DNA of 64,000 nucleotides. Origin: a virus. The stretch's first letter is position 1, and each line of letters opens with the position of its first letter. The stretch is from the IMG/VR virus record IMGVR_UViG_3300022752_000020, positions 32,001 through 96,000 of that record. One strand, written 5' to 3'. This document shows positions 1-43,497 of this stretch, piece by piece. The position numbers and the translations under genes are program-made. Below the pieces are notes generated by a model. That model was not told the origin of the DNA. It worked only from the letters and a program-made list of their open reading frames with translations, and made no database searches.

Positions 1-3000
1 AGAGCAGGAGCAGTGCCATCAGTCTCTATGTATGTACAAGTGACTGCATAGTATGTTGTTTGGTTGCTAACAGCAGTTACACGGCCAATTAATCGTTTTG
101 TTGGGTCACCGTTTACAAACAGGCTTAATGTGCCAAAATAACTACTGCTTGTACCAAATCCACTTAATGAGCTTAACCAGCTAGTTGTTGTATTTCCATC
201 AGCATTACTATTGTTTAGATATACAACAAAGTTTGTGCCAGCTGTCCAACTTGTGCTTATTCTAACCTTATTAGCTGTTGTTCCTGCTGCTGTTGATGAT
301 GAATCAAATAACCAATCTTGGCTATAGCCGCCAGCTGTACCATATATACCTTGTATACCCTGTTGTCCTTGGATACCCTGTTGTCCTTGGATACCTTGGA
401 TACCCTGTTGTCCTTGGATACCTTGACTACTAATTTGTTGCCAAGATGTTGATGATGACTGTGGATATCCTGTTGCTGTATTAGCATTATTTGTACTTGT
501 ATGAGCAGTTACGCAGATCCAGCTTGTGCCTTGATAGAACACCATATCATTTACAGCATATACTGTTGCTGCAAATGTTGTAGTATAACTACTCCAATTT
601 CCTTTCCAAGTTACACCAAAACCTTGTATACCCTGAATACCCTGTACACCTTGTACACCCTGTACACCCTGTACACCCTGTACACCCTGTACACCTTGTA
701 CACCTTGTACACCCTGTACGCCTTGTACTCCTTGTACTCCTTGGATACCCTGAATACCTTGACTGGTCATCTGGCTCCAATATGTACTGTTAATTATAAG
801 TGTCTTGTTAACATTATCAAATACAGCAGGTCTAATATTAAAGAATACTGTTGCACCATTACTATGGCTTGCTGCTATTGTTGAACTTGCACCTCTAGTT
901 AATCCATTTAGAGTGTTGACTGATTTACTAGTATATGTGATATACTCATTATCAATAACAATTTGACCTGAACTTGGGAAAGCACTGGCATTAGTCAATA
1001 CAATTGATGTTGAACTTGCTGTTATTGCTCCGTTTAATGTTGTACTTGTGCTACTGAATGATCCATTTGAGAATGGGTAAACAGCAATATATGAAGCACC
1101 ATCATAGAATACAATATCATTTTGAGTGTATGTAGTAGAAGTATTGAAAATACCTCTATAAGTTACACCAAGACCTTGAATACCCTGTACGCCTTGTACG
1201 CCTTGTACGCCTTGTACGCCTTGTACGCCTTGAATACCCTGTACGCCTTGTACGCCTTGTACACCCTGTACACCCTGTACACCTTGTACACCTTGTACAC
1301 CTTGAACGCCCTGTACACCTTGTACGCCCTGTACGCCCTGTACACCTTGAATACCTTGAATACCCTGTGAACCTGCTAGCTCCCATCTTTCTAAATCAGA
1401 CTCGGGACTTGGACCAATTGCATTATAAATTGTACTTGTATGATAATTAGGAACATAAGTTGGGAGATAGAAACTAATACCTGTACTTGTACCTGCTGTA
1501 CTGGTTATAGTTGCTCCATCTGCTCTAAATGTAATTGCTCCATTAGTTGTTGCTGAAGTGCTTATGGTAATTTGAGTAGCACTATCTACACTAACAATAG
1601 TTGGGGCTCCATTGAAAACACCAGTACCTGATGTTTTGGTTAAAACCATTCCAGCATATAACAATGTTGTACTGGCTAATCCAGTTATTGTTGTACCAGT
1701 TAATGTACCTGTTAAGTTGGTTCTTGGTGCAGTTAAACTCAGTGTTACTGTAGTACGGCCAGCACTAGGTGTGTTAACAGCAGCAGTCTTGACATAGTAT
1801 ATTACTCCTGTGCTTGAATAGCCTTGTAATACTCCTGTACCAGTCTTGGTATTAATACCATATAAGACCTGACCTACAGCAGCAGCACTTGTTGGATTAT
1901 CAAAGCTGATTTGACCACTACTTAGTATTGATACATTGGCCAATAACTGTGGTGTATATTGTGACAAGCTAACATATGTACTACCCAAGTGTGAAACCAT
2001 ATCACTAACAGCATAGTCATTCTCTGGCTTCCAAACACCACGCCACTTAAAGCCTGAACCTTGAATACCTTGTTGACCTTGTACACCTTGAACGCCTTGT
2101 ACGCCCTGTACACCCTGTACGCCCTGTACACCTTGTACGCCCTGTACGCCCTGAACACCTTGGACACCTTGACGTCCTTGTACGCCTTGAACACCTTGAA
2201 CGCCTTGTACGCCTTGAACACCTTGAACGCCTTGGACACCTTGTACGCCCTGAACACCTTGAACGCCTTGGACACCTTGTACGCCCTGAACACCTTGAAC
2301 GCCCTGTACACCCTGTACACCTTGTACACCCTGTACACCTTGCACACCCTGTACACCTTGTACACCCTGTGTAGTTAATTGATTCCAATATGTAGTATTG
2401 ACATAGAAACCACTGGTATTTGGTGTACCATATGCAGGTCTTGTATCTAATAATACCCTTGCACCATTGCTATGTGTTGATGCTGTAGTTCCTTGATATC
2501 CTCTTGTTGTTATAGTTAATGTATTACCTACTATACCATTATACAACATTCTTTCAGCAGTAGCAGGCATTGAGTCTATTGATGCTGCACTGGCTACACG
2601 AATTACACCGCTAGTTGGGAATCCTACTACACTTGTTAATGTTATAGTACTCTGATTTATAGTTGTGATAGCAGCACTTAATGTTGTACTTATGTCACCT
2701 CTAAATGTCCCACTTGAGAATGGATAAACAACAACATAACTTGATCCATCATAGTATACAACGTCGTTTTGAGTATAGTCATAATTATTAACATAGGTGC
2801 CTCTCCAAGTAAAGCTTAAACCTTGAATACCTTGTACACCCTGTACTCCTTGTACACCTTGTACACCCTGTACTCCTTGTACACCCTGTGCTCCTTGTAC
2901 ACCTTGTACACCCTGTACACCTTGTACACCCTGTACGCCCTGTACACCTTGTATGCCTTGAATACCTTGGCTTGTTAATTGATTCCAGTAAGTTGTATTA

Positions 3001-6000
3001 ACTATTAGTTGTTTTGTACCTGCATTGTATATTGAAGGTCTTGTGTTCAACCAAACTGTAGCACCATTATTATGGCTTGCTGCTACAGTACCGTCGGCAG
3101 CCCTTGTTAATCCGCTTAAGGTATTTGAGGTCTTTGTAGTGTATGTAACATATTCATTATCAATAACTACCTGACCTGAGCTTGGGAATAAGCTAGCATC
3201 AGTTAATACTATTGATGTTGAACCTGCTGTAAGAGCTCCGTTTAATGTAGTACTAGTATTACCAAATGATCCGTTAGTATATGGATATACAGCAACAAAT
3301 GCAGCACCATCATAGAATACAATATCATTTTGAGCATAGCTTCCAGAAGTTGTCCAATTACCTTTGAATACTAATCCAAATCCTTGGATACCTTGTATAC
3401 CTTGTGTACCCTGTACGCCCTGTACACCCTGTACACCTTGAACTCCTTGAACTCCTTGAACTCCTTGAACTCCTTGAACACCTTGAACACCCTGAATACC
3501 TTGTGTACCTTGAACACCCTGTAGACCCTGTACACCCTGTACACCCTGTACACCCTGAATACCTTGAATACCTTGTGTACCTTGAACACCCTGTACACCT
3601 TGACGACCCTGTACACCTTGTACACCTTGGATACCCTGAATACCTTGGATACCCTGCGTACCTTGAACACCTTGAACACCTTGTACTCCTTGTGTACCTT
3701 GTACACCCTGTACACCTTGTACGCCTTGAACGCCCTGTACACCTTGAACACCCTGTACACCCTGTACACCCTGTACACCCTGTACACCCTGTACACCTTG
3801 TACGCCTTGTACACCTTGAATACCTTGACGTCCTTGTACACCTTGTACACCTTGTACTCCTTGTACACCCTGAATACCTTGTACGCCTTGTACACCTTGT
3901 ACACCTTGTACACCTTGGACACCCTGTACACCTTGTACACCTTGAACGCCCTGTACGCCTTGTACGCCTTGTACGCCTTGTACACCCTGTACGCCTTGAA
4001 TACCTTGTTGACCCGCAGGCTGGAAGCTGATTCCTAATTTTTGTCCAACTATTGGTGGTGTTCCTGCACTATCAACAAATGTTAATTGTAGTCTAAAATA
4101 ACTTGCATAATCAAATACTGTGGTTATAACACCTGTCCAACGCTGTAAAGTAGCACCTTCTGGCATAATTGTTATAACACCAAAATAACTACTTGAACTA
4201 CCAAAGAACTTAATAGAATTTACCCAAGCTGCACGATCTTGTCCATCAGCATCGTATTTGTCAAGATTAACGTATACTTGGCCACCGGTTTGATCTGTCC
4301 AAGCACGCTCAATTGTAACATTACCTACTCCTGGATCGCCAATAGCTGTACTATTGCTCCAAGCATAATTAGCTGTATAACCACCAGGAGTACCAATAAT
4401 ACCTTGTATACCTTGTACGCCTTGTATACCCTGAGTACCTTGTATACCTTGTATACCTTGTACACCTTGTATGCCTTGTATACCTTGTGTTCCTTGTACT
4501 CCTTGAACACCTTGGACTCCTTGGACTCCTTGAACACCCTGTATGCCCTGTATACCTTGAATGCCCTGTATGCCCTGTATGCCTTGAATACCCTGAACAC
4601 CTTGAGCACTAATGATCAACCATGGAACAGCTTTAAATGTTAATCCTGTTAAGCTACCTGTTCCAGTTGTTAAGATTGAAGCTACAGCAAATTGACTTCG
4701 TCCAAGGCTAAATGTTGTAGTTGGATTATTTGGATAATCAATTACATAATAATCATTATCAATTTTATCGCCAGCAGCATAAAAGGTTGGAGCTAGTGCA
4801 GGACTATCTGGATTCTCAATGGTAAATCCAACTGGTACTATACCACTTACTCTAATAATTTCTGATTTATAAATGTCTACTGGATTACAACTGAATTGAC
4901 CATTTCCAGTTAAGCTAACATTTGATAAAGGTACAGTTTGACCAGGAATTTGACCTACATTTACATAGGCGCCACCGGTATAAGTTTCATCACCATATGT
5001 ACTAGTATATGCTGATCCATTATAATATACAGAATCATTCTTAATGTATCTTGAAATTGAGCTCCACTCACCTAAGAATGTAAATCCTTCACCTTTAGTG
5101 CCTTGGAAGCCTTGTACACCTTGGATACCCTGAATACCTTGGATACCCTGCGTACCTTGAACACCTTGAACACCTTGTACTCCTTGTGTACCTTGTACAC
5201 CCTGTACACCTTGTACACCTTGTACGCCTTGAACACCCTGTACTCCTTGTACACCTTGAACACCCTGTACGCCTTGTACACCTTGAACACCCTGTACGCC
5301 TTGTACACCTTGAATACCTTGAATACCTTGGACGCCTTGGATACCTTGATTGCCTTGTACGCCTTGTACGCCCTGTACACCCTGTACGCCTTGAACGCCC
5401 TGTAGACCCTGTACACCTTGTACACCTTGAACACCTTGTACGCCTTGAACACCTTGTACACCTTGAATACCTTGGACGCCTTGGACGCCTTGGACGCCTT
5501 GGACGCCTTGGACGCCTTGATTGCCTTGTACGCCTTGTACGCCTTGTATACCCTGAATACCTTGTGTACCTTGTACGCCTTGTACGCCTTGTACGCCTTG
5601 AACGCCTTGTACACCTTGTACACCCTGTACGCCTTGGACGCCTTGGACGCCTTGGACGCCTTGGACGCCTTGGACGCCTTGGACGCCTTGTAAACCTTGG
5701 CTGCTCATTAAATTCCAATAGGCTGTATTATCTAAAGTAGGCTCTTGACCATTCCACGAACCTAAAGTGCTTACTCCTATCCAACTAGATCCTTTATAGG
5801 ATACAACATCATTAAAATTATATGTTGTAGTAGAATTATAAATTCCTCTCCAAAGAATACTGAATCCCTGTATACCTTGAACACCTTGAACACCCTGTAC
5901 GCCTTGGACGCCTTGAACACCTTGGACGCCTTGTACGCCTTGTATACCCTGTACGCCCTGTACGCCCTGTACACCTTGACGTCCTTGTACACCTTGTACA

Positions 6001-9000
6001 CCTTGTACGCCTTGTACGCCTTGTACGCCTTGGACACCTTGAACACCTTGAACACCTTGAACACCCTGTACGCCCTGTACGCCCTGTACGCCCTGTACGC
6101 CTTGAACACCTTGTACGCCTTGGATGCCTTGGATGCCTTGGACACCTTGGACACCTTGGATGCCTTGAGCAGATACTTGATTCCAATAAGTTAGTGAAGT
6201 TAAAGGTATATTTCCTAAATTATTAGATTGAATAGCTATATAGGAACCACCACTGTAATAGACTACATCATTGATAGTATAACTTAAATTGGCTAGCCAA
6301 TCACCTCGCCATGTAATTCCAACACCTTGAATACCCTGTACACCCTGTACACCCTGTACGCCTTGTACGCCTTGTACGCCTTGTACGCCTTGTACGCCTT
6401 GTACGCCTTGTACGCCTTGTACGCCTTGTACACCTTGTACGCCTTGTACACCTTGGATACCCTGACGACCCTGTACACCTTGAACGCCCTGTACACCTTG
6501 GACACCTTGAACGCCCTGTAGACCCTGTACACCTTGTACACCTTGTACACCTTGTACACCTTGGATACCCTGAATACCTTGGATACCCTGAATACCTTGA
6601 TCACCCTGTACGCCTTGTACACCCTGTACACCCTGTACACCCTGTACACCTTGTACACCTTGAACGCCTTGAACGCCTTGAACGCCTTGTACGCCTTGTA
6701 CGCCTTGTACACCTTGTACACCTTGAATACCCTGTACACCCTGTACGCCTTGTACACCCTGTACGCCCTGTACTCCTTGTACACCCTGTATACCTTGAAT
6801 ACCCTGAATACCTTGATCGCCCTGTACGCCTTGTACACCTTGTACGCCCTGTACTCCTTGAATACCCTGAATGCCTTGGATACCCTGAATACCTTGATCA
6901 CCCTGTACACCTTGAACGCCTTGTACACCTTGAATGCCTTGAATACCCTGTATACCTTGAATGCCCTGTATGCCTTGGATACCTTGGCTAGCCAAGGTAT
7001 CCCAAACAGTTGATCCTACTGTAGGTATATTACCTAGATTAACTGTTTCACTTACGCTGATCCAAGAACTGCCGTTATAAAATACAGCATCATTTTTAAT
7101 GTATTCCTTGGTTACATCGTACATTCCTCTCCAAGTTACACCGCCACCTTGAATACCCTGTTGTCCTTGTACACCTTGGATACCTTGTACACCTTGTACA
7201 CCTTGTACACCTTGTACACCTTGAACGCCTTGTACACCTTGTACACCTTGAATACCTTGAATACCCTGTATTCCCTGTATACCTTGGTCACCCTGTACGC
7301 CTTGTACACCTTGTACACCTTGAATGCCCTGTATACCCTGTACGCCTTGGATACCTTGATCACCTTGTACGCCTTGTACACCTTGTACACCTTGTACACC
7401 TTGAACGCCCTGTATACCTTGGATACCTTGGACACCCTGTAGACCTTGGACTCCCTGTAGACCTTGTACACCTTGGATGCCCTGTATACCTTGAATACCT
7501 TGAATACCTTGATCACCCTGTACGCCTTGTACACCTTGTACACCTTGAATACCCTGGATACCTTGGATGCCCTGTATACCTTGATCACCCTGTACACCCT
7601 GTACACCTTGTACGCCTTGTACACCTTGTACACCTTGTACACCCTGTACACCTTGGATACCTTGAATACCTTGGATACCCTGTATACCTTGATCACCTTG
7701 TACACCTTGTACACCTTGAACGCCTTGAATACCCTGTACACCCTGTACACCCTGTACACCCTGTACACCCTGTACGCCTTGAATACCCTGTACGCCTTGG
7801 ATACCTTGAACACCCTGACTAGCTAATCTTTCCCAATAACCATCGTTATCTTGTGGTCCTGGAATTGCTGCTGGATCATTTATTCCTTTTGGAACTCCCT
7901 CGACTCCAGAATAACGTACTATCCAACTATTGCCGTCATAGAATACAACTTCGTTTTGGAAATATGTAGTATTAAAATCATAATATCCACGCCAAATGAC
8001 ACCAAATCCTTGGATACCTTGAACGCCCTGTACTCCCTGTACACCTTGAATACCTTGGGTACCTTGTACACCTTGTACACCTTGAATACCTTGAACGCCC
8101 TGTATACCCTGTACACCTTGGATACCTTGTAAGCCCTGTACACCTTGGATGCCTTGTACGCCTTGAACGCCCTGTATACCTTGAATGCCCTGTACACCTT
8201 GTACACCTTGTAAGCCCTGTACACCTTGGATGCCTTGTACGCCTTGAACGCCCTGTATACCTTGAATGCCCTGTATACCTTGATCGCCTTGTACACCCTG
8301 TACACCTTGAATACCCTGTACACCTTGAATACCTTGTGTACCTTGTATACCTTGTGTACCTTGTATACCTTGAAGGCCTTGGACGCCTTGTATACCCTGA
8401 ATACCTTGTACGCCTTGTACACCTTGTACGCCTTGTACACCTTGTACGCCTTGTACACCTTGGATACCTTGTACACCTTGTACGCCTTGTACACCTTGTA
8501 CGCCTTGTATACCCTGAATACCTTGTGTACCTTGTACACCTTGTACGCCTTGTACGCCTTGAACGCCTTGTACACCTTGTACACCTTGAACACCCTGTAC
8601 GCCTTGAACGCCTTGGACGCCTTGGACGCCTTGTGTACCTTGTACACCTTGGACGCCTTGTACACCTTGTACGCCTTGTACACCTTGGACACCTTGTACA
8701 CCTTGGACACCTTGTACACCTTGGACGCCTTGGATGCCTTGTACGCCTTGTACGCCTTGTACGCCCTGTACACCTTGTACACCTTGTACGCCTTGTACAC
8801 CTTGAACGCCTTGTACGCCTTGTACGCCTTGTAAACCTTGGGCAGTCATTCTAGCCCAATATGTGCTATTTAGAGTTCCTGGCTCTCCATATACTCCAAT
8901 AACCTCAGGTACCTCACCACTAAACTGACTTCCAGGTACATCATATGGATCAATTGGCCAAACAGCAATAAAACTAGTACCATTATAATAAACTACATCA

Positions 9001-12000
9001 TTTTGTTGGTACTGTGCAGCATTATTATAAATGCCTTTCCATACAATACTAAAGCCTTGAATACCTTGAACGCCCTGTACACCTTGGACTCCTTGGACTC
9101 CTTGGATACCTTGCAATCCTTGGACACCCTGTATACCCTGTACACCTTGTACACCCTGAGCAGCAATGATATCCCAATCTGAACCTAATGTTACTGGAGG
9201 CAGATTTCCTAAATTATCCATAATTAAGGATACATAGGATTCCCCATTATATCTTACAGCATCATTCTTAGCATAAGATTCTGTTGGGACCCATTGACCA
9301 CGCCAATTAAATCCAAGACCTTGAATACCTTGTTGACCCTGTACACCCTGTACACCTTGAACGCCCTGCACACCTTGAACGCCCTGCACACCCTGTGTTC
9401 CTTGTACGCCTTGAACACCCTGTACGCCTTGAACACCTTGTATACCTTGTGTACCTTGGATACCTTGTTGTCCTAGTACACCTTGAATACCTTGTACACC
9501 TTGAACGCCTTGTAAACCTTGAATACCCTGTATACCTTGGTCACCCTGTACACCTTGTACGCCTTGTACGCCCTGTACACCTTGGATACCTTGGATGCCC
9601 TGTATACCTTGATCACCCTGTACACCTTGAACACCTTGAACACCTTGAACACCCTGTACACCTTGAATACCCTGTATTCCCTGTATACCTTGGTCACCCT
9701 GTACACCTTGAACACCCTGTACACCCTGTACACCTTGGATACCTTGAATACCTTGGATACCTTGATCACCCTGTACACCTTGTACACCTTGTACGCCTTG
9801 TACACCCTGTACACCCTGTACGCCTTGTACACCCTGTACGCCTTGTACACCCTGTACGCCCTGTACGCCTTGTACACCCTGTACGCCTTGAACGCCTTGA
9901 ACGCCTTGAACGCCTTGGACGCCTTGGACACCTTGTGCTGTCATGCGCTCCCAATAAGTATCATTTACATCGCCTGGACTAAATTCTGGAACTTGATTAC
10001 TAAACTTTCCATAAGGAGATGTTAGACTAATTGGATAAACAGCAATAAAACTATTACCGTCATAATAAACTACATCATTTTGTGAATACTCTACGTCTGG
10101 TTGCCAAATACCACGCCATGTAAAGCTAAAACCTTGAATACCCTGTACACCCTGTACGCCTTGTACGCCTTGTACACCTTGAACACCCTGTACACCTTGG
10201 ATACCTTGTACACCTTGGATACCTTGTACACCTTGTAAGCCCTGTACACCTTGAATACCTTGATCACCCTGTACACCCTGTACACCCTGCACACCCTGTA
10301 TACCCTGTACACCCTGTACACCCTGTACACCCTGTACACCTTGGATACCTTGGATACCTTGGATACCTTGGATACCTTGGATACCTTGGATACCTTGATC
10401 ACCTTGGACACCTTGTACACCCTGTATGCCTTGTATGCCTTGGATACCTTGGATACCTTGAATACCCTGAATACCTTGATCGCCCTGTACACCTTGAACG
10501 CCTTGGACACCTTGAATACCCTGAATACCTTGGATACCTTGGATACCTTGATCACCCTGTACACCCTGTACACCCTGTACACCCTGTACACCCTGTACAC
10601 CTTGGATACCTTGAATACCTTGGATACCTTGGATACCTTGATCACCCTGTACGCCTTGTACTCCTTGTACACCCTGTACTCCTTGTACACCCTGTATACC
10701 TTGAATACCCTGAATACCTTGATCGCCCTGTACACCCTGTACACCCTGTACACCTTGTACACCCTGTACACCCTGTACACCCTGTACACCCTGTACACCT
10801 TGTACACCTTGTACACCCTGTACACCTTGGATACCTTGAATACCTTGGGTACCTTGGATACCTTGTATACCTTGAACAGCTAACCTATTCCAGTAAGTAT
10901 CATTTAATGTACCTGGCTCACCATTATTTCCTATGTATTCTGGAACTTGACCACTAAATTTACTACCTTCTAGGTCATAAAAATCAATTGGATATACAGC
11001 AATATAACTACTACCATTAAAATAGACTACATCATTTTGTTGATATGAAGCTGTAGAATCGTAAGGACCTTTCCATACTAGGCTAAAACCTTGGATACCT
11101 TGGACACCTTGAACGCCCTGTACTCCCTGTACACCTTGAATACCTTGGGTACCTTGAATGCCTTGAATACCTTGGATACCTTGGATACCTTGGATACCTT
11201 GAATACCTTGATCACCTTGGACACCTTGAACGCCCTGTACGCCCTGTACGCCCTGTACACCTTGTATGCCTTGAATACCTTGAACACCCTGTACACCTTG
11301 AATACCTTGAACACCCTGTACACCCTGTACACCTTGAATACCTTGGATGCCCTGTATACCTTGATCACCCTGTACACCTTGTACACCTTGAATACCTTGG
11401 ATGCCCTGTATACCTTGGATGCCCTGTATACCTTGATCACCCTGTACGCCTTGTACGCCCTGTACGCCTTGTACGCCCTGTATACCTTGGATGCCCTGTA
11501 TACCTTGATCGCCTTGTACACCCTGTACACCTTGGACACCTTGGACACCCTGAATACCTTGGATTCCCTGTACACCTTGTACGCCTTGTACGCCCTGCAC
11601 ACCTTGGATACCTTGTACACCTTGTACACCTTGTACACCTTGTACACCTTGTACGCCTTGGATACCTTGTATACCTTGATCACCTTGGACGCCTTGAACA
11701 CCTTGAACGCCTTGTACGCCTTGAACACCTTGAACGCCTTGTACACCTTGTACACCTTGTACGCCTTGTACACCTTGTACGCCTTGTACACCTTGTACAC
11801 CTTGTACACCCTGTAGACCTTGGATACCCTGTGCGGTCATCCTATTCCAGTATGTTGTATTAACTACTCCTGGATAGCCTGCTCCTGGTTCGCTTAATAA
11901 TGGACGAGTAGCCTCGCCACTAAATGTGTTGTTTACATCACCTGTGATGGCAATAAATGTATTACCATCATAGTAAACCATATCATCTGTTGAATACTTC

Positions 12001-15000
12001 TCAGTTGGACTCCAATCACCTTTCCAAACTGGGCCACGACCTTGGATACCTTGGACACCTTGAATACCTTGAATACCCTGTAATCCTTGAATACCCTGAA
12101 TACCCTGTACACCTTGAATACCTTGATCGCCTTGTATGCCTTGTACACCCTGTATACCTTGAATGCCTTGTACACCTTGAATGCCTTGTACACCCTGTAC
12201 ACCTTGAATACCTTGTACGCCTTGTATACCCTGTACACCTTGTATACCTTGATCACCCTGTACACCTTGAACGCCCTGTATACCTTGAACACCCTGTACA
12301 CCCTGTACACCCTGTACACCTTGAACACCCTGTACACCTTGAATGCCTTGTATACCCTGTACGCCTTGTATACCTTGATCACCCTGTACACCCTGTACAC
12401 CTTGTACGCCTTGTACACCTTGAATACCTTGTATACCCTGTACGCCTTGTATACCTTGATCGCCTTGGACGCCCTGTACACCTTGGACGCCCTGTACACC
12501 TTGAATACCTTGGATGCCCTGAATACCTTGTATACCTTGATCGCCTTGGACGCCCTGTACACCTTGGACGCCCTGTACACCTTGAATACCTTGGATGCCC
12601 TGAATACCTTGTATACCTTGATCGCCTTGGACGCCCTGTACACCTTGTACGCCTTGCACACCTTGTACACCTTGTACACCTTGTACACCTTGTACGCCTT
12701 GAACTCCTTGTACACCTTGTACACCTTGCAAGCCCTGTATACCTTGACTTACAATCATATCCCAAGCACGAGGATCAAAAACTAGATCTGGTTGTTTACC
12801 TATATTACCATCATATAAGCTATTGTAAGCACTACCATTATAAAATACGGCATCGTTCGTAAAGTAGGTTGCTGTTGGATCCCAAACACCTTTCCAGTTA
12901 AATCCAAGACCCTGAATACCCTGTATACCTTGTATACCCTGTATACCTTGTGTACCTTGAATACCCTGGATACCTTGGATGCCCTGTATACCTTGATCGC
13001 CTTGGACACCCTGTACACCCTGTACACCCTGTACACCCTGTACACCCTGTACACCCTGTACACCCTGTACACCTTGTACGCCCTGTATACCTTGAATACC
13101 CTGTACACCTTGTATACCTTGATCGCCTTGGACGCCCTGTACACCCTGCACACCCTGCACACCCTGTATACCTTGTATACCTTGGATACCCTGTATACCT
13201 TGATCGCCTTGGACGCCCTGTACACCCTGTACACCTTGAACACCCTGTACACCTTGAACACCCTGTACACCCTGTACACCTTGAACGCCCTGTACGCCTT
13301 GCACGCCCTGTACACCCTGTACACCTTGAACGCCCTGTACACCCTGTACACCTTGCAAGCCTTGAATACCTTGGCTTGCTAATAGTTCCCAATATGTGTC
13401 ATTATATTCTGGGCCTGGTACCGTTGTTGGGTCTTGTATTCCAGGAGTAAGACCATCCACATCCTTGTTAATAACAATCCAACTTGCACCGTTGTAGAAT
13501 ACTACCTCATTTTGATAATACCTTGTATTAAAGTCATATTGGCCTCGCCAAATTAGACCAAAACCTTGAATACCTTGAATACCTTGAATACCTTGTACGC
13601 CTTGTATTCCCTGTTGACCTTGAACGCCCTGTACACCTTGTACACCTTGTACACCTTGAACGCCCTGTACACCTTGTACACCTTGTACGCCTTGTACGCC
13701 TTGTACGCCTTGTACGCCTTGTACACCTTGTACACCTTGTACACCTTGTACACCTTGTACGCCTTGTACGCCTTGAATACCTTGGGCACTCATTAATGAC
13801 CAATGAGCATCCTCTGTCACTGGCCATTCTGGTGGTTCATTATTGAAATTGTTATCGTGTAAACTAATCCAGCTGCTACCTCTGTGGTAAACAACATGAT
13901 TAGTGTAATATGCTACATTTGGATACCACTGACCTTGCCATAAAATACTGAAACCTTGGATACCCTGTATACCCTGTATACCTTGTACGCCTTGAATACC
14001 CTGTATACCTTGTATACCTTGATCACCTTGTATACCCTGTACACCCTGTACACCCTGTACGCCTTGTACACCTTGGACTCCTTGTACACCCTGTACGCCT
14101 TGTATACCTTGTACACCCTGTACGCCTTGTATACCTTGTACACCCTGAGCAGCAACAATATCCCAATCTGTTCCAAGATATAAATCAGGTTGTTTGCCTT
14201 GATTAAATCTTGTCAAACTTACATAACTGAAACCATTATAGTAAACGGTATGATTTATATCATAGACACCATCTACGCTCCAAGTGCCTTTCCATTGGAA
14301 GCCAACACCTTGAATACCCTGTACGCCTTGTACGCCTTGTACACCTTGTATGCCTTGTACGCCCTGTACACCTTGAACGCCTTGGATACCCTGACTGGTC
14401 GATTTTTCCCAATTATTACTACCAAAATATGGTCTATTATTAATATTATTATCAGTGATACTTACCCAGCTACCACCATCATAATAAACCATATCTCCAA
14501 TAAAATATTCAGCAGTAGGAGCCCAGTATCCTTTCCATAAAATACTGCGTCCTTGAATACCTTGAATACCCTGGATACCTTGTAAGCCTAAGTCACCCTG
14601 TAAACCCTGTGTACCTTGTGGTCCCTGTGGTCCCTGTGGTCCTAAGCGACCTTGTATACCTTGAATACCCTGTGGTCCTTGGGCTGTCATTATCTGCCAA
14701 TAAGCACTACCTACAAATGGAGCAGGTTGTCCTTGATTGGGCTGTAGAGCTACCCATGATCCACCATTATAATATACAACATCATTAAAGCTATATGTTT
14801 CGCCTGCTTGCCAAAGACCACGCCATACAAAGCCTAAACCTTGAATACCTTGTTGACCTTGTATACCTTGACGACCTTGAATACCTTGTGGACCAAGACC
14901 ACCTTGTATACCCTGTATACCCTGTATACCCTGTATACCCTGTAGACCACCACCACTAGTAATAGCAGCATAACCAGCTTGTGGACTGGAAAATACAACA

Positions 15001-15290
15001 CGAATATTACCAGCATCCAAAAATTCAATATATGGACTTCCTGGTAAACCCTCTCTTATACTTTGTTTATTAAGATCGCTGAGTTGTACAACAACAATTT
15101 CAGCGCCTAATCGATGATTAATTTCCCATACTGTAGCAGCAGTAAGTTGTTTGTGTAGGAAGAATCCACCAACAGCACTATCACCTTGGAGACCTTGAGC
15201 ACCTTGGGCTCCTTTTTCTCCAATCATTACGGAGCGCCAACCGTCTTGGACTCCTTGTATGCCTTGGAAATATCGCTTTAGTACACTCAT
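1..15290 (-). CDS. Giant collagen-like fibre protein (>5096 aa, truncated at left edge): Gly-X-Gln blocks alternating with CBM5/12-like modules
   Basis: Not in the ORF track because no stop is reached. ATG at 15290 overlaps the upstream TGA (ATGA). N-terminus [31 protein letters not shown] checked the frame at about 25 points down to position 3 and it stays in one open frame (GVQ/GIQ repeats plus linkers such as [26 protein letters not shown]). Confidence 0.93.
345..14950 (-). repeat. 23 blocks of degenerate 9-bp coding repeat (GGN-NNN-CAR, mostly Gly-Val/Ile-Gln)
   Basis: On the + strand ccttgtaca/ccctgtaca/ccttgaata/ccttggata units run in blocks of about 80-830 bp, separated by unique 150-680 bp linkers. 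Confidence 0.97.
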
Positions 15291-15535: not shown

Positions 15536-16945
15536 TTAAGTCTCGTAGATATCCAAAGTATTTATCGCTACCAACCATTTGATAGTTTTATCTGGATCAC
15601 CTCCACTTAATTTGGAAGGACCCTTAACTAATATTTTAATCGATCCATTAGAAGTGTCTGCTTCAGCTTTTACTGCCCAACTATAAGTTCTTTGATCAGC
15701 AGGTGTAAGATATTTATCAGCAGTACCTGTACCAGTACCCACTGTACTGTTAGCTGTAAACACTGTACCTACTAAGTAGTCCCTTGTTTCACCATCTGTG
15801 CTTAATGCAGCCCAGTTGGTTCCAGTTCCTAATGTTTTGATTTTATATACGTTACCACTAATTAGTGATGTAGCTGCAACTGTTACTGTAGTTACTGTGG
15901 TCGTAGGTGACCCAGCAACTTTTTCCGTAATTGTGTTTCCTATAATAGCTGTTGTCGATGCATTGGCTCCTCTGGTTGCTAATAAATCTATGTTCCATAT
16001 GGCACTCTCTGTGCCGCCGTCTAACCTACCTGTTATGTTTACATTAATCTTATAGGTCGTATGATTAGATAGATAAAATCTATTTGTTACACTTGGTGGT
16101 AATCCATCTAATGTAACTTCTAATTCTTGACCATTTGTAGTACTGGTTCTTGCTAATAAACTTGTTTTTTCATATAAAGTATTAAAAGGATTATCTGGAT
16201 CATAATTATCACTGGTTAATGTATCAGTTGCATGTTGAGTAAATCTACTACCCTGTAGCCTAACTACACCATCTAATCTTGGCTGAATTATAACATCGCC
16301 TGTGTCAGGATCATCTGAACTATCTTTATTAACAGCAACAATAGTATTATCAATCAACTGTAAATTACCAAATTTACCTTGTTGTTGATCTGAAATACCT
16401 ACAAATCCAATATATCTATAACCTCTAACCCATATACTATTACCACCTAATCCATCTGGTATTACATTACTATTATTACCATTATCTAAATAATTAGTAA
16501 AATTAAGCACACCTGACATATAGTCAAAATAGTATGCACCTTTGTCATTAATACCAGCATCAAATATTTTAGTACCACTACTAGCAGGATTGCCTATAAA
16601 AACTTCAATTAAATACCCAGGGCCAAACTCTGGTGGAATCCAATTAGTGTATCTTGTAGCACCTGCTTTGGCTATCCATGTAGGGTAGATACCGCTAATA
16701 GGTGTTGTTGTATTATCTGCTATACATTCTATTGTACGATATTCAACTATATTAGGTACAGCAGCTGGAGCTGATGGTGGCTGTAAAATACTATTACTTT
16801 GAGTCCATACTGTGTCACCGCGGATCAGTGCTGGACTGGGTATAACCTCGTTGCTAGCACCTTTTAGTGTGTTAAAATCAGTCTTTGCTACACCAAATAG
16901 CTTTTTATATAAGAGGTCAACCTTCTGTTTATCAACAACAGCCAT
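15536..16945 (-). CDS. Putative virion structural protein (469 aa); N-terminal domain paralogous to 41398..43485
   Basis: Shared motifs: VDLLxKKLxGVAKTD, SNExIxSP, WIPPEF, YFDYxxGxLxF, GYRYxG. Confidence 0.75.
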   Translation of the reverse strand: MAVVDKQKVDLLYKKLFGVAKTDFNTLKGASNEVIPSPALIRGDTVWTQSNSILQPPSAPAAVPNIVEYRTIECIADNTTTPISGIYPTWIAKAGATRYTNWIPPEFGPGYLIEVFIGNPASSGTKIFDAGINDKGAYYFDYMSGVLNFTNYLDNGNNSNVIPDGLGGNSIWVRGYRYIGFVGISDQQQGKFGNLQLIDNTIVAVNKDSSDDPDTGDVIIQPRLDGVVRLQGSRFTQHATDTLTSDNYDPDNPFNTLYEKTSLLARTSTTNGQELEVTLDGLPPSVTNRFYLSNHTTYKINVNITGRLDGGTESAIWNIDLLATRGANASTTAIIGNTITEKVAGSPTTTVTTVTVAATSLISGNVYKIKTLGTGTNWAALSTDGETRDYLVGTVFTANSTVGTGTGTADKYLTPADQRTYSWAVKAEADTSNGSIKILVKGPSKLSGGDPDKTIKWLVAINTLDIYET

Positions 16946-19056
16946 TAGTTAGTTGCTCCTGATAGTGTTAATGCTGTTACAACATCACCTGCCTGTAGTT
17001 TAATCCTTATATATACTTCTTGTGTAGCTGTTCCACTGGTGCTCAATGTACCAAATGTACATGTTCTACTCTGTGTAACATTACTGCCTAAAGTGACTAC
17101 ACCGCCCAAGCTACAACCATTTGAGCCATTTCCACCTGTGCCTGTTCCAGGAACACCTGAACCAGCATATGGTTGATCCATTCTCAACCATCCATTTAAT
17201 CCGTTGTTTGTACCAATACCAGCTGGTACTGCTACCCATAATCCTCTGATAGTTCCAGTAATATTGATATTAAACTTACTAACAGCACCTCTTACAAAAG
17301 CAAAAGTAAAGTATTGATTTGCTGCTTGTCCGCTTCTATTTGGCCCTACTGGTAAAAATCCTGTGCTATAATCTGTAGCGTCATGCTTTAACACTGCTTG
17401 ATTACCTTGTCCTACCACTACAGCATCATAAGTTTCTATAGTACCTGACTGGCTGTTAAAGGCTGCTGCACTGGCTGTAAACGAAGGAGTATCACCGCTT
17501 CCTGGATTTACAATACGATATGCACTGGCACTTCCACTACCAAACCCCGCAGCAGCCGCTATATTAGTTTCTTCTATAGTATTTGTATTACTTGTTCCTG
17601 TTTTGAATAATACACCACCGCTAGGAGTAAAATTCTGTGTAGTTGAACCATAGCTATTAAGTGCTTGCAATGTTACAGGTGCGTTACTAAGTCCAACACC
17701 ACTTTTTACAGTAACAGTAGTTGATAAACTTAGTGTTGAACTAGCCAAATAGTTTCTTGGTAATGGGGTCGTTATCCCTGCACTAGTATAGGTCAATGGA
17801 GTTGGTGCGTTAAATGCTCCGCCGCCTCCGCTAGTTATAAATGTATCACTTACTGGGTACATGTCACCACTTAATTTGGCAATATCAAAACTTAGTGTAA
17901 ATGTTGTAGCATTTGCATAATGTGGAATTCCGCTACTATATGTTAATGTTGCTGATGTAGGAGTAAATGCTACATTAGTAAATTCTGGGCTACCTGGGGC
18001 ACTGGCATCATAATACCAAACTGCTGTGTTGGTTGTGCCTGTTGTTGCTGGGACTGTTTCTGGAAATAAATTATTATGTCTAATATATACTTCATTCCAG
18101 CCTTCTTGGACTGAACCTGATGCTGTAGCGTCAAATGTTTGCCAAAATAATGGACTTATTGCTGGTACTGCTATACGTGAATAATCCTGATCATCTGTAA
18201 TAACTAGATCACCATAAGTACCATTATCTGTTCCTAGTAAATATACAGCACTGCTTTCATTTTCACTCTCTTGTAAACCATCAGTGAATGTCTTATTTCC
18301 GCTAGCTACACCATTTTTCCATACTGTTATACTTCCTCTATCACCTGGTCCACAGTCCTGTATAGTACTAGATGTATATGTATTACTGCGTCTAGTCACA
18401 CTGACTACAGTTCCGCCTGCAACGCTTTTATTTTGTCCAGGTGTACGATCAGTTTGAGTAAAATTACACATTCTATAACTAGATACACCTAATATAGACA
18501 GTGTTTGACTATTACCATTTTTAAGTTTAGGGAAATTTGGAGGTGGTTTAGGTACGAGTTTACCCAATATAAAATTCATTTGTGCCATTCCTCTGCTTAC
18601 AGGTGTGGCTGTATTCATTGCTACTGCTCTACTTACTAGTCCTGGTTGATCTGGGTTTCCTATTTTTACACCCATAGCACTGTCAAATTTAACTAGACCA
18701 GTAGTTTGTAGGTCTCCAGCAGTGTCAAGTGTTATATCTTCGCCGTAGAATCTAGCTTCTATGCCCTGATCAGTTAATTGAATTCTTTCTGTATGAAATG
18801 CTTCTGCTTGAATTTGTCCAGTGGCTTGAAAATCGCCATTATCATCTATCTGTAGAGTATCACTCCAATAGCGTTTACCATATTTGTCTGTGAGCAGAAC
18901 ACGTCTGACATCTGCACTATCAGTGGTCTCTGGGACTCCTAGATCAGGTTCCGCTTCACTTAACTTTAAAAAGTCGTATCTTTGTTCACTGACTTCAGTG
19001 GGTTTGATCTTTTTGACACGGCCACTGAACAGTTCTACTCTTTGTTGTGCAGCCAT
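16945..19056 (-). CDS. Putative virion structural protein (703 aa); C-terminal two-thirds paralogous to 43498..46350, N-terminus paralogous to 19202..20182
   Basis: N-terminus VELFSGRV..LKLxEAEPxLxVP. Shared C-terminal motifs LVPxPPPxFP, TYSSxIPHY, LKHDxTxYSTGxLPxGP, QYFTFxFVR. Thr/Gly/Ser-rich beta composition. Confidence 0.75.
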   Translation of the reverse strand: MAAQQRVELFSGRVKKIKPTEVSEQRYDFLKLSEAEPDLGVPETTDSADVRRVLLTDKYGKRYWSDTLQIDDNGDFQATGQIQAEAFHTERIQLTDQGIEARFYGEDITLDTAGDLQTTGLVKFDSAMGVKIGNPDQPGLVSRAVAMNTATPVSRGMAQMNFILGKLVPKPPPNFPKLKNGNSQTLSILGVSSYRMCNFTQTDRTPGQNKSVAGGTVVSVTRRSNTYTSSTIQDCGPGDRGSITVWKNGVASGNKTFTDGLQESENESSAVYLLGTDNGTYGDLVITDDQDYSRIAVPAISPLFWQTFDATASGSVQEGWNEVYIRHNNLFPETVPATTGTTNTAVWYYDASAPGSPEFTNVAFTPTSATLTYSSGIPHYANATTFTLSFDIAKLSGDMYPVSDTFITSGGGGAFNAPTPLTYTSAGITTPLPRNYLASSTLSLSTTVTVKSGVGLSNAPVTLQALNSYGSTTQNFTPSGGVLFKTGTSNTNTIEETNIAAAAGFGSGSASAYRIVNPGSGDTPSFTASAAAFNSQSGTIETYDAVVVGQGNQAVLKHDATDYSTGFLPVGPNRSGQAANQYFTFAFVRGAVSKFNINITGTIRGLWVAVPAGIGTNNGLNGWLRMDQPYAGSGVPGTGTGGNGSNGCSLGGVVTLGSNVTQSRTCTFGTLSTSGTATQEVYIRIKLQAGDVVTALTLSGATN

Positions 19057-43485: not shown

Positions 43486-43497
43486 TATCTATCCCTA

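What the first reader, a model, noticed from the sequence alone, without database searches (positions are those of the whole stretch)
1..15290. Hidden >5000-aa collagen-like gene missed by the ORF track: potentially a near-micron beaded filament
Seen: a single minus-strand frame from ATG 15290 running off the left edge. It has 23 Gly-X-Gln blocks totalling roughly 8.9 kb (about 900-1000 triplets, manual estimate). Established: a collagen triple helix rises about 0.29 nm per residue. Inference: about 0.8-0.9 micron of collagenous rod punctuated by more than 20 globular beads, longer than typical tails. It could be a capture line for dilute aquatic hosts, particles or capsule, or a drag/buoyancy device. 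All the YTL/VYK/CTR ORFs in the track are shadows of this gene.
Basis: partly seen in the sequence, partly recalled or inferred. Interest (0 to 1): 0.88.

Follow-up and report, generated by a model that had tools for sequence, protein, structure and literature searches.

The report
Micron-long beaded collagen fibre gene
An uncultured 400-kb lake phage encodes a real, conserved 6,481-residue collagen-like protein, which if it forms a triple helix would be a beaded thread about one micrometre long, far longer than any phage fibre found here's searches, though where it sits on the virus and what it binds are still unknown.

Summary
A single minus-strand frame runs from ATG 15290 off the left edge with no stop.

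**The gene.** On the whole contig it is 6,481 aa (661 kDa). It has 33 Gly-[Val/Ile]-Gln blocks totalling 1,196 triplets, about 1.03 µm if triple-helical. The overlapping ORFs are off-frame or antisense shadows.

**Not an assembly artefact.**
- The window part has no repeated 127-mer.
- Wobble positions vary while the Gly and Gln codons are fixed.
- Five contigs from four metagenomes keep the gene in the same synteny, with intact orthologs of 6,000 and 6,247 aa.

**Architecture.**
- The blocks are joined by small modules: 51–70-aa CBM5/12-like beads, beads with inserted domains, and a 120-aa β-sandwich that otherwise turned up only in viral collagen-repeat proteins.
- A three-copy model of block-bead-block passed its controls (0.54 vs 0.00).

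**Context.** The gene lies in a fibre gene cluster of a T4-like jumbo myovirus. A two-gene cassette precedes it, and the same cassette precedes φCbK's proposed head-filament gene.

**Reading.** It is most likely a virion-attached, segmented trimeric tether. The attachment site and the ligand are unresolved. It is a new, extreme variant of the known collagen-like phage fibres. The scan had already noted this gene from the neighbouring window of the same genome, not on other DNA.

The parts
1..15290 (-). In-window part (aa 1-5096) of the 6,481-aa collagen-like fibre gene. The stop lies 4,155 nt beyond the left edge (genome 27845).
14946..15290 (-). Conserved N-terminus. It holds a 23-aa leader ([10 protein letters not shown]...), 5 triplets, and a 76-aa beta-rich module (M01) ending in SGGG.
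   Evidence: 55-77% identity across 4 contigs. The M01 type is a widespread internal module of other collagen-bearing proteins: 632 clusters.
8001..8837 (-). Longest uninterrupted Gly-X-Gln block: 93 triplets, about 80 nm (aa 2152-2430).
6165..6317 (-). Example of a short bead (M15, 51 aa, CBM5/12-like; motif W-[KR]-G-x-[WY]...Y-x-x-N-D-x-V-x-Y-x-G...P...W). There are 16 such beads of 51-70 aa in the N-terminal two thirds.
   Evidence: 18 of 27 beads hit PF02839 at E<=0.01.
4602..5084 (-). M17, a 161-aa bead with a large insert. Together with the next block and M18 it forms the central '161-[25]-121' core (163 aa in L017; next block 25-33 triplets) kept in all three full-length orthologs.
4014..4376 (-). 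M18, the type-B module (121 aa), a beta-sandwich. There are 7 copies in this protein (6 near or beyond the window edge) and one in each ortholog.
   Evidence: Fold pLDDT 86.6. No PDB match. 38 BFVD matches in viral collagen-repeat proteins, TMq up to 0.80.
2967..3374 (-). M19, a bead with a roughly 70-aa inserted domain that is shared with the 6,904-aa neighbour and with tail-fibre and baseplate PHROGs.
1374..2051 (-). M21, the largest bead (226 aa), with a Thr/Ser/Gly-rich insert.
   Evidence: no PHROG hit
15536..16945 (-). p469, a cassette protein. Its N-terminal 180 aa (phrog_9417 type) are shared with p695 and with phiCbK-group gp074/gp088/gp089.
16945..19056 (-). p703, a cassette protein (phrog_8578 type, homolog of phiCbK gp073). 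It is a string of beta-sandwich domains ending in a jelly-roll of CBM/MAM type.
41398..46350 (-). Second copy of the cassette (p950 and p695), upstream of the 6,904-aa giant ORF.

Best explanation
**What it is.** It is a genuine structural gene of an uncultured T4-like jumbo myovirus from lakes. A complete relative has a 400-kb genome. The product is a 661-kDa chain.

**How it is built.**
- Three chains most likely assemble in parallel into a segmented collagen-like rope. It has 33 triple-helical Gly-[Val/Ile]-Gln segments of 3-80 nm, about 1.03 um in total, joined by 32 small trimeric nodes.
- The nodes are beta-rich modules derived from a CBM5/12-like fold. Some carry inserted domains. Seven are a virus-specific beta-sandwich.
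- Inferred: each node sets and locks the register of three otherwise identical, slippage-prone repeat chains. The rope can then fold segment by segment rather than as one 1,200-triplet zipper.
- Inferred: the nodes also give hinges and, at least in the insert-bearing ones, binding surfaces.
- Inferred: a conserved 25-residue amphipathic C-terminal tail after the last long block (74-93 triplets across the orthologs) is a candidate terminal trimerisation element.

**What it does (inferred).**
- One end of the rope is fixed to the virion through the products of the conserved fibre cluster (p703, p469 upstream; p1035 downstream).
- It then serves as a long, flexible, multivalent tether. It makes the first weak contact with glycans on the host surface or on particles. 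This enlarges the capture radius of a large, slowly diffusing virion from about 0.1 um to several tenths of a micrometre.
- After that contact the conventional baseplate fibres engage.

**Attachment site.** It is not resolved. I put the tail periphery slightly ahead of the capsid or neck.
For: **Shown**
- The ORF is intact.
- Coding-type selection: Gly and Gln codon positions 1-2 are fixed and wobble positions carry 1.1-1.5 bits; GVQ is written 16 different ways.
- Five contigs from four samples keep the same synteny. Full orthologs are 6,000 aa with 1,209 triplets and 6,247 aa with 1,438 triplets. They share the N-terminus, the central core, the last long block and the C-terminal tail.
- Pfam Collagen is well over threshold.
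- Bead junctions are tightly conserved, so the collagen runs straight in and out. 18 of 27 beads hit CBM_5_12.
- The gene lies among virion genes: sheath, gp15-like, Gp23, portal.
- Modules hit tail-fibre, baseplate and virion-protein PHROGs.
- The type-B fold recurs in viral collagen-repeat and tail-fibre proteins.
- In three other T4-like jumbo contigs the p703-type gene occupies the same slot and is followed by large or giant proteins. In one of them GP38-type tail-fibre adhesins follow.

**Model only**
- Three copies of 10 triplets + bead + 10 triplets: ipSAE 0.54 (runs 0.56, 0.52, 0.54) against a best control of 0.00.
- At least 95% of contacts were shared between runs. Partner pLDDT was at least 76.
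- The mark was reached by 20 of 30 solved homo-pairs and 1 of 23 single chains. These counts hold only roughly here, because my own alignment and three copies were used.
- Contacts run Gly-to-Gly along both flanks. The conserved Trp33 packs on the neighbouring chain.
- Triple helices are well represented among solved structures, so part of this pass may be memory.

**From the literature**
- Phage collagen-like tail-fibre proteins are trimeric triple helices capped by trimerisation domains (PMC3368898).
- Without small trimerisation domains of 30-54 residues, collagen chains form misregistered local associations and gels (PMC13138384).
Against: - There is no expression, proteomic or imaging evidence. 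The phage is uncultured.
- The blocks hold only 10 Pro, 41 Asp+Glu and 14 Lys+Arg in 3,588 residues. The usual stabilisers of bacterial and phage collagens are therefore missing: Pro fills about half of X and charged residues are common in EPclA (PMC3368898). The stability of a Gly-Val-Gln helix is untested.
- The giant has no recognisable virion-attachment domain. The M01 module is a general internal module, not an anchor. The only T4 gp9/gp10-N baseplate plug on the contig belongs to a different, 422-aa collagen-like ORF.
- In the trimer model the conserved Trp is buried between chains. This argues for a structural role of the beads rather than sugar binding.
- CBM_5_12 hits cover only profile positions 2-31 of 44, and many fall below Pfam's cut-off.
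- Copy number in the C-terminal sixth, outside the window, rests on 401-bp exact repeats.
Confidence: 0.55

Rival explanations
1. It is a capsid- or neck-anchored filament, the counterpart of the phiCbK head filament or of the 'hairs' of Asteriusvirus-type jumbo phages. It would wrap or entangle a host appendage (flagellum, pilus, stalk) or capsule rather than act from the tail.
For: The two-gene cassette upstream (p703 and p469 types) is homologous to phiCbK gp073/gp074 and CcrColossus gp087-gp089. There it sits directly upstream of gp76/gp091, the 2,750-2,800-aa protein proposed as the head filament (PMC3556154). The cluster lies next to the head genes. The major capsid protein is 66-70% identical to that of GAP32, Serratia BF and related jumbo phages. 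phAPEC6, assigned to that group from recalled taxonomy (it was not among the rows listed), carries unassigned hairy fibres on the capsid and at three rings on the sheath (PMC7247149). The giant lacks a gp9/gp10-type baseplate plug.
Against: The phiCbK assignment is itself only bioinformatic; gp76 was not detected in virions (PMC3556154). The giant shows no similarity to gp76, which is built of ALK/LTK-type glycine-rich domains rather than collagen. In a relative the same cassette type is followed by GP38-type tail-fibre adhesin genes. One family member carries a T4 gp9/10 N-terminal domain.
Confidence: 0.25
2. The Gly-[Val/Ile]-Gln blocks do not form a collagen triple helix. They would be disordered or beta-rich Gln-rich spacers (an entropic brush or gel) between folded domains, so the physical length and stiffness would differ greatly.
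For: Pro and charged residues are nearly absent in the blocks. The beta-branched residues in X have only middling triple-helix propensity in host-guest peptides (recalled: Persikov et al. 2000). The trimer pass may reflect the model's memory of collagens.
Against: Gly sits at every third residue without a single lapse over runs of up to 93 triplets and is conserved in the orthologs. A spacer does not need this. Gln is among the better non-imino residues at Y (recalled). Imino-poor collagen regions still form 10/3 helices (PMC13138384). The model passed with controls at 0.00. Conserved trimer-type junctions flank every block.
Confidence: 0.12
3. It is not a virion part. It would be made in or released from the infected cell, for example as a net that aggregates cells or particles, or as a scaffold used only during assembly.
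For: There is no direct evidence of virion association. No attachment domain was recognised. Glycosyltransferase genes lie just downstream.
Against: It is embedded among structural genes on the same strand. Its modules are shared with tail-fibre, baseplate and virion proteins. No signal peptide or lysis context was seen. No gene-calling or signal-peptide tool was run, so this last point is weak.
Confidence: 0.07
4. It is an assembly expansion or a decaying pseudogene.
For: The DNA is highly repetitive. There are 401-bp exact repeats and identical module copies in the C-terminal part beyond the window.
Against: There are no repeated 127-mers in the window part. There is no stop in 19.4 kb. Orthologs of similar size are intact in independent assemblies. 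Substitutions follow a coding pattern.
Confidence: 0.03

Closest known systems
Prophage collagen-like tail-fibre proteins of E. coli O157:H7 (EPclA-D; PMC3368898)
   Same: They are phage fibre proteins that use a Gly-X-Y triple helix. They are trimeric, and globular trimerisation modules flank the collagen part.
   Different: They have one collagen domain in a much shorter protein (sizes recalled, not checked here), against 33 blocks in 6,481 aa. Pro fills about half of X and charges are common there; here X is Val/Ile and Y is Gln, with almost no Pro or charge. Their PfN, PfC and Pf2 domains were not found here.
phiCbK gp76 / CcrColossus gp091, the proposed head-filament protein (PMC3556154)
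   Same: It is a giant protein in the structural region, directly preceded by homologs of the same two cassette proteins. It is thought to be a long flexible host-capture filament.
   Different: It is 2,750-2,800 aa, not collagen (about 40 triplets), and built of ALK/LTK-type glycine-rich domains. The virus is a siphovirus. Its role is unproven.
Viral 'collagen triple helix repeat' proteins of uncultured tailed phages, cyanophages (S-CAM7, S-H34) and giant viruses (Marseillevirus, Klosneuvirus, Indivirus)
   Same: They carry the same type-B beta-sandwich next to collagen repeats (TMq 0.63-0.80, E down to 4e-9).
   Different: The matched proteins are 180-1,400 aa. None seen here has the 30-fold alternation of blocks and beads.
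Other block-bead collagen proteins in metagenomes (P0003, P0004, P0006, P0007)
   Same: Collagen blocks alternate with roughly 50-aa modules.
   Different: They have at most 499 triplets and 18 blocks. Several start with a hydrophobic, Ala-rich stretch that looks like a signal peptide (not tested), so they may be bacterial surface proteins. Their X/Y usage is Pro/Ala/Thr-rich.
Bacillus BclA and Mimivirus fibril collagen-like proteins (recalled, not tested here)
   Same: They are collagen-like surface hairs with a globular trimerising head. They are glycosylated, and here glycosyltransferase genes lie next to the cluster.
   Different: Those hairs are on the order of tens to about 140 nm (recalled). 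The BclA head is C1q-like, whereas the type-B module found no C1q/TNF match.

Membership tests
Collagen triple-helix repeat proteins (PF01391) | Gly at every third residue over long uninterrupted runs | tested here: met
   33 runs, 1,196 triplets, longest 93. Pfam Collagen scores 57.6-116.2 bits against a cut-off of 27.2.
Collagen triple-helix repeat proteins (PF01391) | Three chains form a staggered triple helix | tested here: inconclusive
   This is a model only. Three copies gave ipSAE 0.54 against a best control of 0.00, with partner pLDDT at least 76, at least 95% shared contacts, and Gly-Gly contacts along both flanks. The pass may be memory of solved collagens.
Collagen triple-helix repeat proteins (PF01391) | High imino-acid or charged-residue content that stabilises the helix | tested here: not met
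   10 Pro, 41 Asp+Glu and 14 Lys+Arg in 3,588 block residues.
EPcl-type phage collagen-like tail fibres | PfN (PF08400), PfC (PF06820) or Pf2 (PF03406) capping domains | tested here: not met
   None was reported by Pfam scans of four segments covering all module types or of the N-terminus at E<=1.
CBM family 5/12 (PF02839) | Match to the family profile above the curated cut-off | tested here: met
   The bead at aa 160-190 scores 34.3 bits and the bead at aa 4907-4937 scores 48.6 bits, against a cut-off of 26.2. 18 of 27 beads match at E<=0.01, though many fall below the cut-off and only profile positions 2-31 of 44 are covered.
CBM family 5/12 (PF02839) | Exposed aromatic residues that bind chitin or cellulose | tested here: inconclusive
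   In the trimer model the conserved Trp33 contacts the neighbouring chain. Binding itself cannot be tested with these tools.
phiCbK-type giant filament locus | Giant gene directly preceded by gp073- and gp074-type genes | tested here: met
   p703 aligns to gp087/gp088 at 31-35% identity. p469 aligns to gp088/gp089 at 33-35% over 190-216 aa. Synteny is shown.
phiCbK-type giant filament locus | The giant protein is homologous to gp76 | tested here: not met
   BLASTP found no hit better than E 0.07. The domain families differ: PF12810 in gp76 against Collagen and CBM_5_12 here.
phiCbK-type giant filament locus | Filament emanates from the capsid apex | not testable with these tools
   This needs imaging.
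T4-type baseplate-attached fibres | gp9/gp10-type N-terminal baseplate plug (PF07880), or homology to gp34-gp37 | tested here: not met
   The only PF07880 match on the contig is at the N-terminus of the 422-aa collagen ORF (genome 125557-125667, 25.3 bits). One distant p703-family member has the domain (27.1 bits). PHROG scans of the modules returned only unnamed tail-fibre, baseplate-wedge and virion-protein families, none labelled gp34-gp37.
Tail tape-measure proteins | Largely helical protein encoded between the tail chaperones and the baseplate hub | tested here: not met
   The composition is collagen plus beta modules. The gene sits in a fibre cluster between the neck and head genes.

The most novel reading that the evidence does not exclude
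The phage carries the longest appendage seen for any virus: a thread about 1.1 um long, eight times its head diameter. The thread would be built on a previously unseen collagen design, a proline-free Gly-Val-Gln helix kept in register by about 30 CBM-like trimeric clamps. It would work as a fishing line that multiplies the encounter rate of a giant virion with sparse hosts or particles in lake water. The same cassette-plus-giant locus would be the genetic basis of the phiCbK head filament and of the unexplained 'hairs' of jumbo phages.
Probability: 0.25. Interest if true: 0.88.

Novelty: new variant of a known kind. Interest (0 to 1): 0.66.

Why it matters
**Size.** Collagen-like segments in phage fibres are known, but only as short single domains. 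Here a virus spends 19.4 kb, about 5% of a 400-kb genome, on one protein. That protein should reach about 1 µm. A search of 5.8 billion protein clusters for giants sharing its first 330 residues found nothing above 499 triplets among those examined.

**If it is on the virion:**
- It changes the estimate of how far a phage can reach for its host.
- It offers a genetic handle on the unassigned filaments of jumbo phages and of φCbK.

**For protein science.** A proline-free, charge-free, hydroxylation-free triple helix kept in register by 50-residue nodes would be a simple recombinant route to very long, defined collagen rods.

**A practical point.** The blocks contain almost no Lys or Arg. Tryptic proteomics would see only the beads, which may be why such proteins escape virion proteomes.

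Tried and rejected
- **PDB top hit.** The best sequence hit for the collagen part (8zxl/9ius, 'spindlefibril | axialfibril') is a collagen assembly studied by time-resolved cryo-EM with a (GSQGAPGLQGAPGAP)n repeat. The match is compositional only.
- **Type-B module as a C1q/TNF head.** I expected this. Foldseek against the PDB gave nothing at E<=0.001. The wide structural search gave a best Z of 6.3, within the background range. There is no support.
- **M01 as a dedicated virion anchor.** Rejected. Its profile finds 632 clusters, mostly at internal positions and in several copies. It has no Pfam family.
- **Similarity of the giant to φCbK gp76.** BLAST found none. The Gly-rich insert in the G001 ortholog is PF21722, while gp76 carries PF12810. 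BLAST between them found nothing. This is a weak resemblance only.
- **Cassette proteins against the PDB by sequence or profile.** Nothing.
- **ESM Atlas look-alikes of p703 and p469.** All scores were below 0.9, so they are leads only.
- **p703 fold.** It is a run of beta-sandwich domains. The best Foldseek hit is a φ812 baseplate chain at TM 0.11. The C-terminal jelly-roll gives Z 6-8 to MAM, Eph and CBM domains. None of this decides the location on the virion.
- **GP38 adhesin search in this genome and in G001.** There was no match, but the control genomes were silent too, so this says little.
- **N-glycosylation sequons in the modules.** The counts were 54 against 45.6±5.5 here and 36 against 32.8 in one ortholog. 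Only the third ortholog exceeded all shuffles. The pattern is not consistent.
- **T4 late promoter TATAAATA upstream of the gene.** Absent. There is one copy in the whole window. No σ70-like site or terminator of note flanks the gene.
- **Phage database searches.** DNA-level (megablast) searches found only short capsid-gene matches. The N-terminal 130 aa had no tblastn match in 50,697 phage records.

Full report
**1. The observation**

With open-ended ORFs allowed, the window holds a single minus-strand frame from ATG 15290 to the left edge. It is 5,096 codons long with no stop.

The window is bases 32001-96000 of one 159,920-bp virus contig. Read on that contig, the gene ends 4,155 nt further on, at genome 27845..47290. 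The product is 6,481 aa, 661.5 kDa, with pI 4.5.

Counting runs of at least four Gly-X-Y triplets gives these figures:

| | Window part | Whole gene |
|---|---|---|
| Blocks | 24 | 33 |
| Triplets | 1,010 | 1,196 |
| Block DNA | 9,090 nt | – |
| Residues in blocks | – | 3,588 |
| Length at 0.286 nm per residue | about 0.87 µm | about 1.03 µm |

- The longest single block has 93 triplets, about 80 nm.
- Position Y is Gln in 95% of triplets. Position X is Val in 50% and Ile in 30%.
- The blocks contain only 10 Pro, 41 acidic and 14 basic residues.
- The many 150-300-aa ORFs that overlap the gene on both strands are made of KVY, VYR, YTL and PVH repeats. They are the other frames and the antisense of the 9-nt unit.

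**2. Is it real?** Three lines say yes.

- *The DNA is not a perfect repeat.*
  - The tripeptide GVQ is written in 16 different ways.
  - Across all 1,196 units, Gly codon positions 1-2 never vary and Gln positions 1-2 hardly vary (0.3 bits).
  - The three wobble positions carry 1.1-1.5 bits. This is the pattern of a translated, selected frame.
- *The window part is uniquely assemblable.*
  - Its longest exact repeat is 122 bp, and no 127-mer occurs twice.
  - Longer exact repeats (401 bp) and identical module copies occur only in the C-terminal sixth, beyond the window. Copy number there needs long reads.
- *The gene is conserved.*
  - Five IMG/VR contigs from four samples carry the same gene order, with a giant collagen ORF in the same place.
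  - I fetched two of these orthologs in full. They are intact at 6,000 aa (33 blocks, 1,209 triplets) and 6,247 aa (29 blocks, 1,438 triplets).
  - They share the N-terminus, a central '161-[25]-121' core, a last block of 74-93 triplets and a 25-residue C-terminal tail. Block lengths and module numbers differ.

**3. The virus**

- The major capsid protein is of the T4 Gp23 type. It is 66-70% identical to that of the 350-470-kb myoviruses GAP32, Serratia BF, Vibrio 2.275.O and Sinorhizobium Phosso.
- Sheath, gp15-like, portal, gp6-like baseplate wedge and hub genes are present.
- One relative is a 399,796-bp contig rated 100% complete. Our contig is rated 45% complete.
- An earlier follow-up in this scan calls it a lake phage. 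I did not test that.

**4. Anatomy of the protein**

The first 23 residues ([10 protein letters not shown]...) are nearly invariant among relatives. They are followed by five triplets and a 76-aa module, M01.

M01 is not a special anchor. Its profile finds 632 clusters in an exhaustive search, mostly at internal positions and in several copies. The carriers often also contain collagen repeats. M01 has no Pfam family.

*Short beads.* Sixteen beads of 51-70 aa follow, with the motif W-[KR]-G-x-[WY]-x5-Y-x2-N-D-x-V-x-Y-x-G ... P ... W.
- Pfam reads them as CBM_5_12. Two exceed the curated cut-off, and 18 of 27 match at E<=0.01. Only two thirds of the profile is covered.
- The junctions are strongly conserved (...G-I-Q-G-x-G-φ-x-W... 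on the way in...W-x-x-φ-x-[SA]-Q-G-I-Q-G... on the way out). The collagen therefore runs directly into and out of each bead.

*Larger modules in the C-terminal third.*
- Some beads carry inserted domains of 70-170 aa. One insert type is shared with the neighbouring 6,904-aa protein and with tail-fibre, baseplate-wedge and virion-protein PHROGs.
- There are seven copies of a 120-aa 'type-B' module. It folds confidently (pLDDT 86.6, pTM 0.82) as a β-sandwich.
- The type-B fold has no convincing solved counterpart. It recurs in 38 predicted viral structures at E<=0.001, with TMq up to 0.80.
- Almost all of these are 'collagen triple helix repeat' proteins of uncultured tailed phages. Others are cyanophage tail-fibre or baseplate-connector proteins and giant-virus proteins. 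It is a virus-specific companion of collagen repeats.

**5. Does it trimerise?**

- The score was 0.54 (runs 0.56, 0.52, 0.54). The best of three controls was 0.00.
- At least 95% of contacts were shared between runs, and pLDDT was at least 76.
- In calibration the mark was reached by 20 of 30 solved homo-pairs and 1 of 23 single chains. These counts hold only roughly here.
- Contacts follow both collagen flanks Gly-to-Gly with a one-triplet offset. Within the bead, the conserved Trp33 packs against residues 46, 57, 59 and 76 of the next chain.

This supports a parallel trimer with the beads on the axis. It does not prove it, and triple helices are familiar to such models.

**6. How I think it works**

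*Shown:* the periodicity, the conserved junctions, the conservation of the gene and its structural-gene context.

*Inferred:*
- Three identical chains of 1,200 near-identical triplets could pair in countless wrong registers.
- Reviews of recombinant collagen note that chains without small trimerisation domains of 30-54 residues form local misregistered associations and gels (PMC13138384).
- Trimeric nodes at most every 80 nm would set the register locally, let each segment fold on its own, and act as hinges.
- With no proline there is no slow prolyl isomerisation step.
- Gln at Y is among the better non-imino residues for the helix, and Val/Ile at X are middling. This is recalled from host-guest peptide work and was not tested here.
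- As a worm-like chain with a 1,125-nm contour and a persistence length of 15-160 nm, the rope would have an rms reach of 0.18-0.56 µm. That is several times the radius of the virion.
- I therefore read it as a long, multivalent first-contact tether. Binding surfaces are more likely on the insert-bearing beads and type-B modules than on the buried aromatic core of the short beads.

**7. Where is it attached?** This is unresolved.

The gene order on the minus strand is p950 - p695 - 6,904-aa giant - p112 - p326 - p703 - p469 - collagen giant - p1035.
- p950 and p703 are paralogs (phrog_8578). p695 and p469 share a 180-aa N-terminal domain (phrog_9417).
- Each giant therefore follows the same two-gene cassette.

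*For the capsid.* Homologs of both cassette proteins occur in the φCbK-like Caulobacter and Brevundimonas phages. There they sit directly upstream of gp76/gp091, the protein proposed (never shown) to be the head filament that catches the flagellum (PMC3556154). phAPEC6, an Asteriusvirus by recalled taxonomy like the GAP32-type capsid relatives, has unassigned hairy fibres on the capsid and sheath (PMC7247149).

*For the tail.*
- The p703 family has more than 230 clusters, all unnamed.
- In three other T4-like jumbo contigs it occupies the same slot after portal-protease-scaffold-Gp23, and is followed by proteins of 598 to more than 2,478 aa.
- In one of these contigs GP38-type tail-fibre adhesins follow.
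- One family member carries a T4 gp9/gp10 N-terminal domain.

*Other points.*
- p703 itself is a string of β-sandwich domains ending in a lectin-like jelly-roll. It looks like a short receptor-binding fibre.
- On our contig the only gp9/gp10-type plug belongs to a separate 422-aa collagen-like ORF in the baseplate cluster.

I put the tail periphery slightly ahead of the capsid or neck.

**8. Comparison and novelty**

- Collagen-like phage fibre proteins are established: EPclA-D are trimeric and capped by trimerisation domains (PMC3368898). This protein is not a new kind of thing.
- What is new is the scale and the design.
  - Searching 5.8 billion clusters for proteins of 2,802-8,918 aa that share its first 330 residues gave 25 hits. 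Among the eight best examined, none had more than 499 triplets or 18 blocks.
  - The chemistry is Pro-free and nearly charge-free.
  - The thirty-fold block-bead alternation with CBM-like nodes was not seen in any phage protein retrieved here.
- I class it as a new variant of a known kind.
- The scan had already noted this same gene from the adjoining window of the same genome. My counts agree with that note, except that I find 24 CBM-like beads plus 7 type-B modules and M01.

**9. Caveats**

- There is no evidence of expression.
- The triple helix and the trimer are predictions.
- The ligand is unknown.
- Copy number in the C-terminal sixth is uncertain.
- The protein database did not contain the 6,000-aa orthologs, so its silence on other giants is weak evidence of rarity.

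Noticed in passing
window 20623-41337 (-): A second giant ORF of 6,904 aa, with a 6,682-aa open frame at the same place in the complete relative. It is preceded by a second copy of the same cassette (p950, p695). It has no collagen repeats. It shares a roughly 70-aa insert domain with the collagen giant (48% identity over 72 aa). Other first-stage notes read it as tandem phycobiliprotein-like domains; I did not test that.
   Followed up: partly
L001 9893-12667 (-) = genome 21893-24667, downstream of the collagen gene and p1035: There are three genes on the same strand: a DUF4422 protein (Pfam E 1.7e-23; weak match to the O-antigen glycosyltransferase WbbM), a 417-aa protein with weak TPR hits, and a GT2 glycosyltransferase. 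The order giant - p1035 - DUF4422 - TPR is kept in both orthologous contigs (74-85% identity). The fibre may be glycosylated. N-X-S/T sequons are not consistently enriched.
   Followed up: partly
L001 12690-12717 (-): A perfect sigma-70 consensus promoter (TTGACA, 16 nt, TATAAT; 12 of 12) lies between p1035 and the DUF4422 gene. The glycosyltransferase genes may therefore be a separate, host-polymerase-read unit.
   Followed up: no
L003 9551-10819 (+) = genome 125551-126819: A small 422-aa collagen-like ORF (79 triplets) lies in the baseplate cluster. It has a T4 gp9/gp10-type N-terminal domain (25.3 bits) and strong tail-fibre PHROG hits. It looks like the phage's conventional baseplate collagen fibre.
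   Followed up: partly
genome 110801-125548 (+), spanning L002 and L003: A third giant ORF of 4,915 aa lies directly after the gp6-like baseplate wedge gene. Its N-terminus weakly matches a baseplate-wedge tail-fibre connector PHROG. It is followed by three proteins (745, 1,012 and 609 aa) that share an N-terminal domain, as in branched fibre sets.
   Followed up: partly
L001 6315-7619 (+) = genome 18315-19619: The 434-aa neck-region structural protein (read as gp14-like by another first-stage note) carries one copy of the bead-type CBM5/12-like module near its C-terminus (aa 351-396; E 3e-5 to bead M22).
   Followed up: partly
L016 about 9200-10200 (aa about 2999-3330 of the 6,000-aa ortholog): The ortholog in the complete 400-kb relative has a Pfam Gly_rich_2 domain (32.4 bits) inserted in one bead. 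It is absent from our copy. phiCbK gp76 is built of glycine-rich domains of another Pfam family (ALK_LTK_GRD).
   Followed up: partly
L001 15848-20000 (-), aa about 5100-5950 of the giant: The C-terminal part has near-identical tandem units: three pairs of identical modules, a 735-bp period and a 401-bp exact repeat. It has seven type-B modules against one in each ortholog. This is either a recent lineage-specific expansion or an assembly uncertainty.
   Followed up: partly
whole window: The T4 late-promoter octamer TATAAATA occurs once in 64 kb. Shuffles give 7.9 +/- 3.2, and all 100 shuffles had at least one. If this phage has T4-like late promoters, their sequence differs.
   Followed up: no
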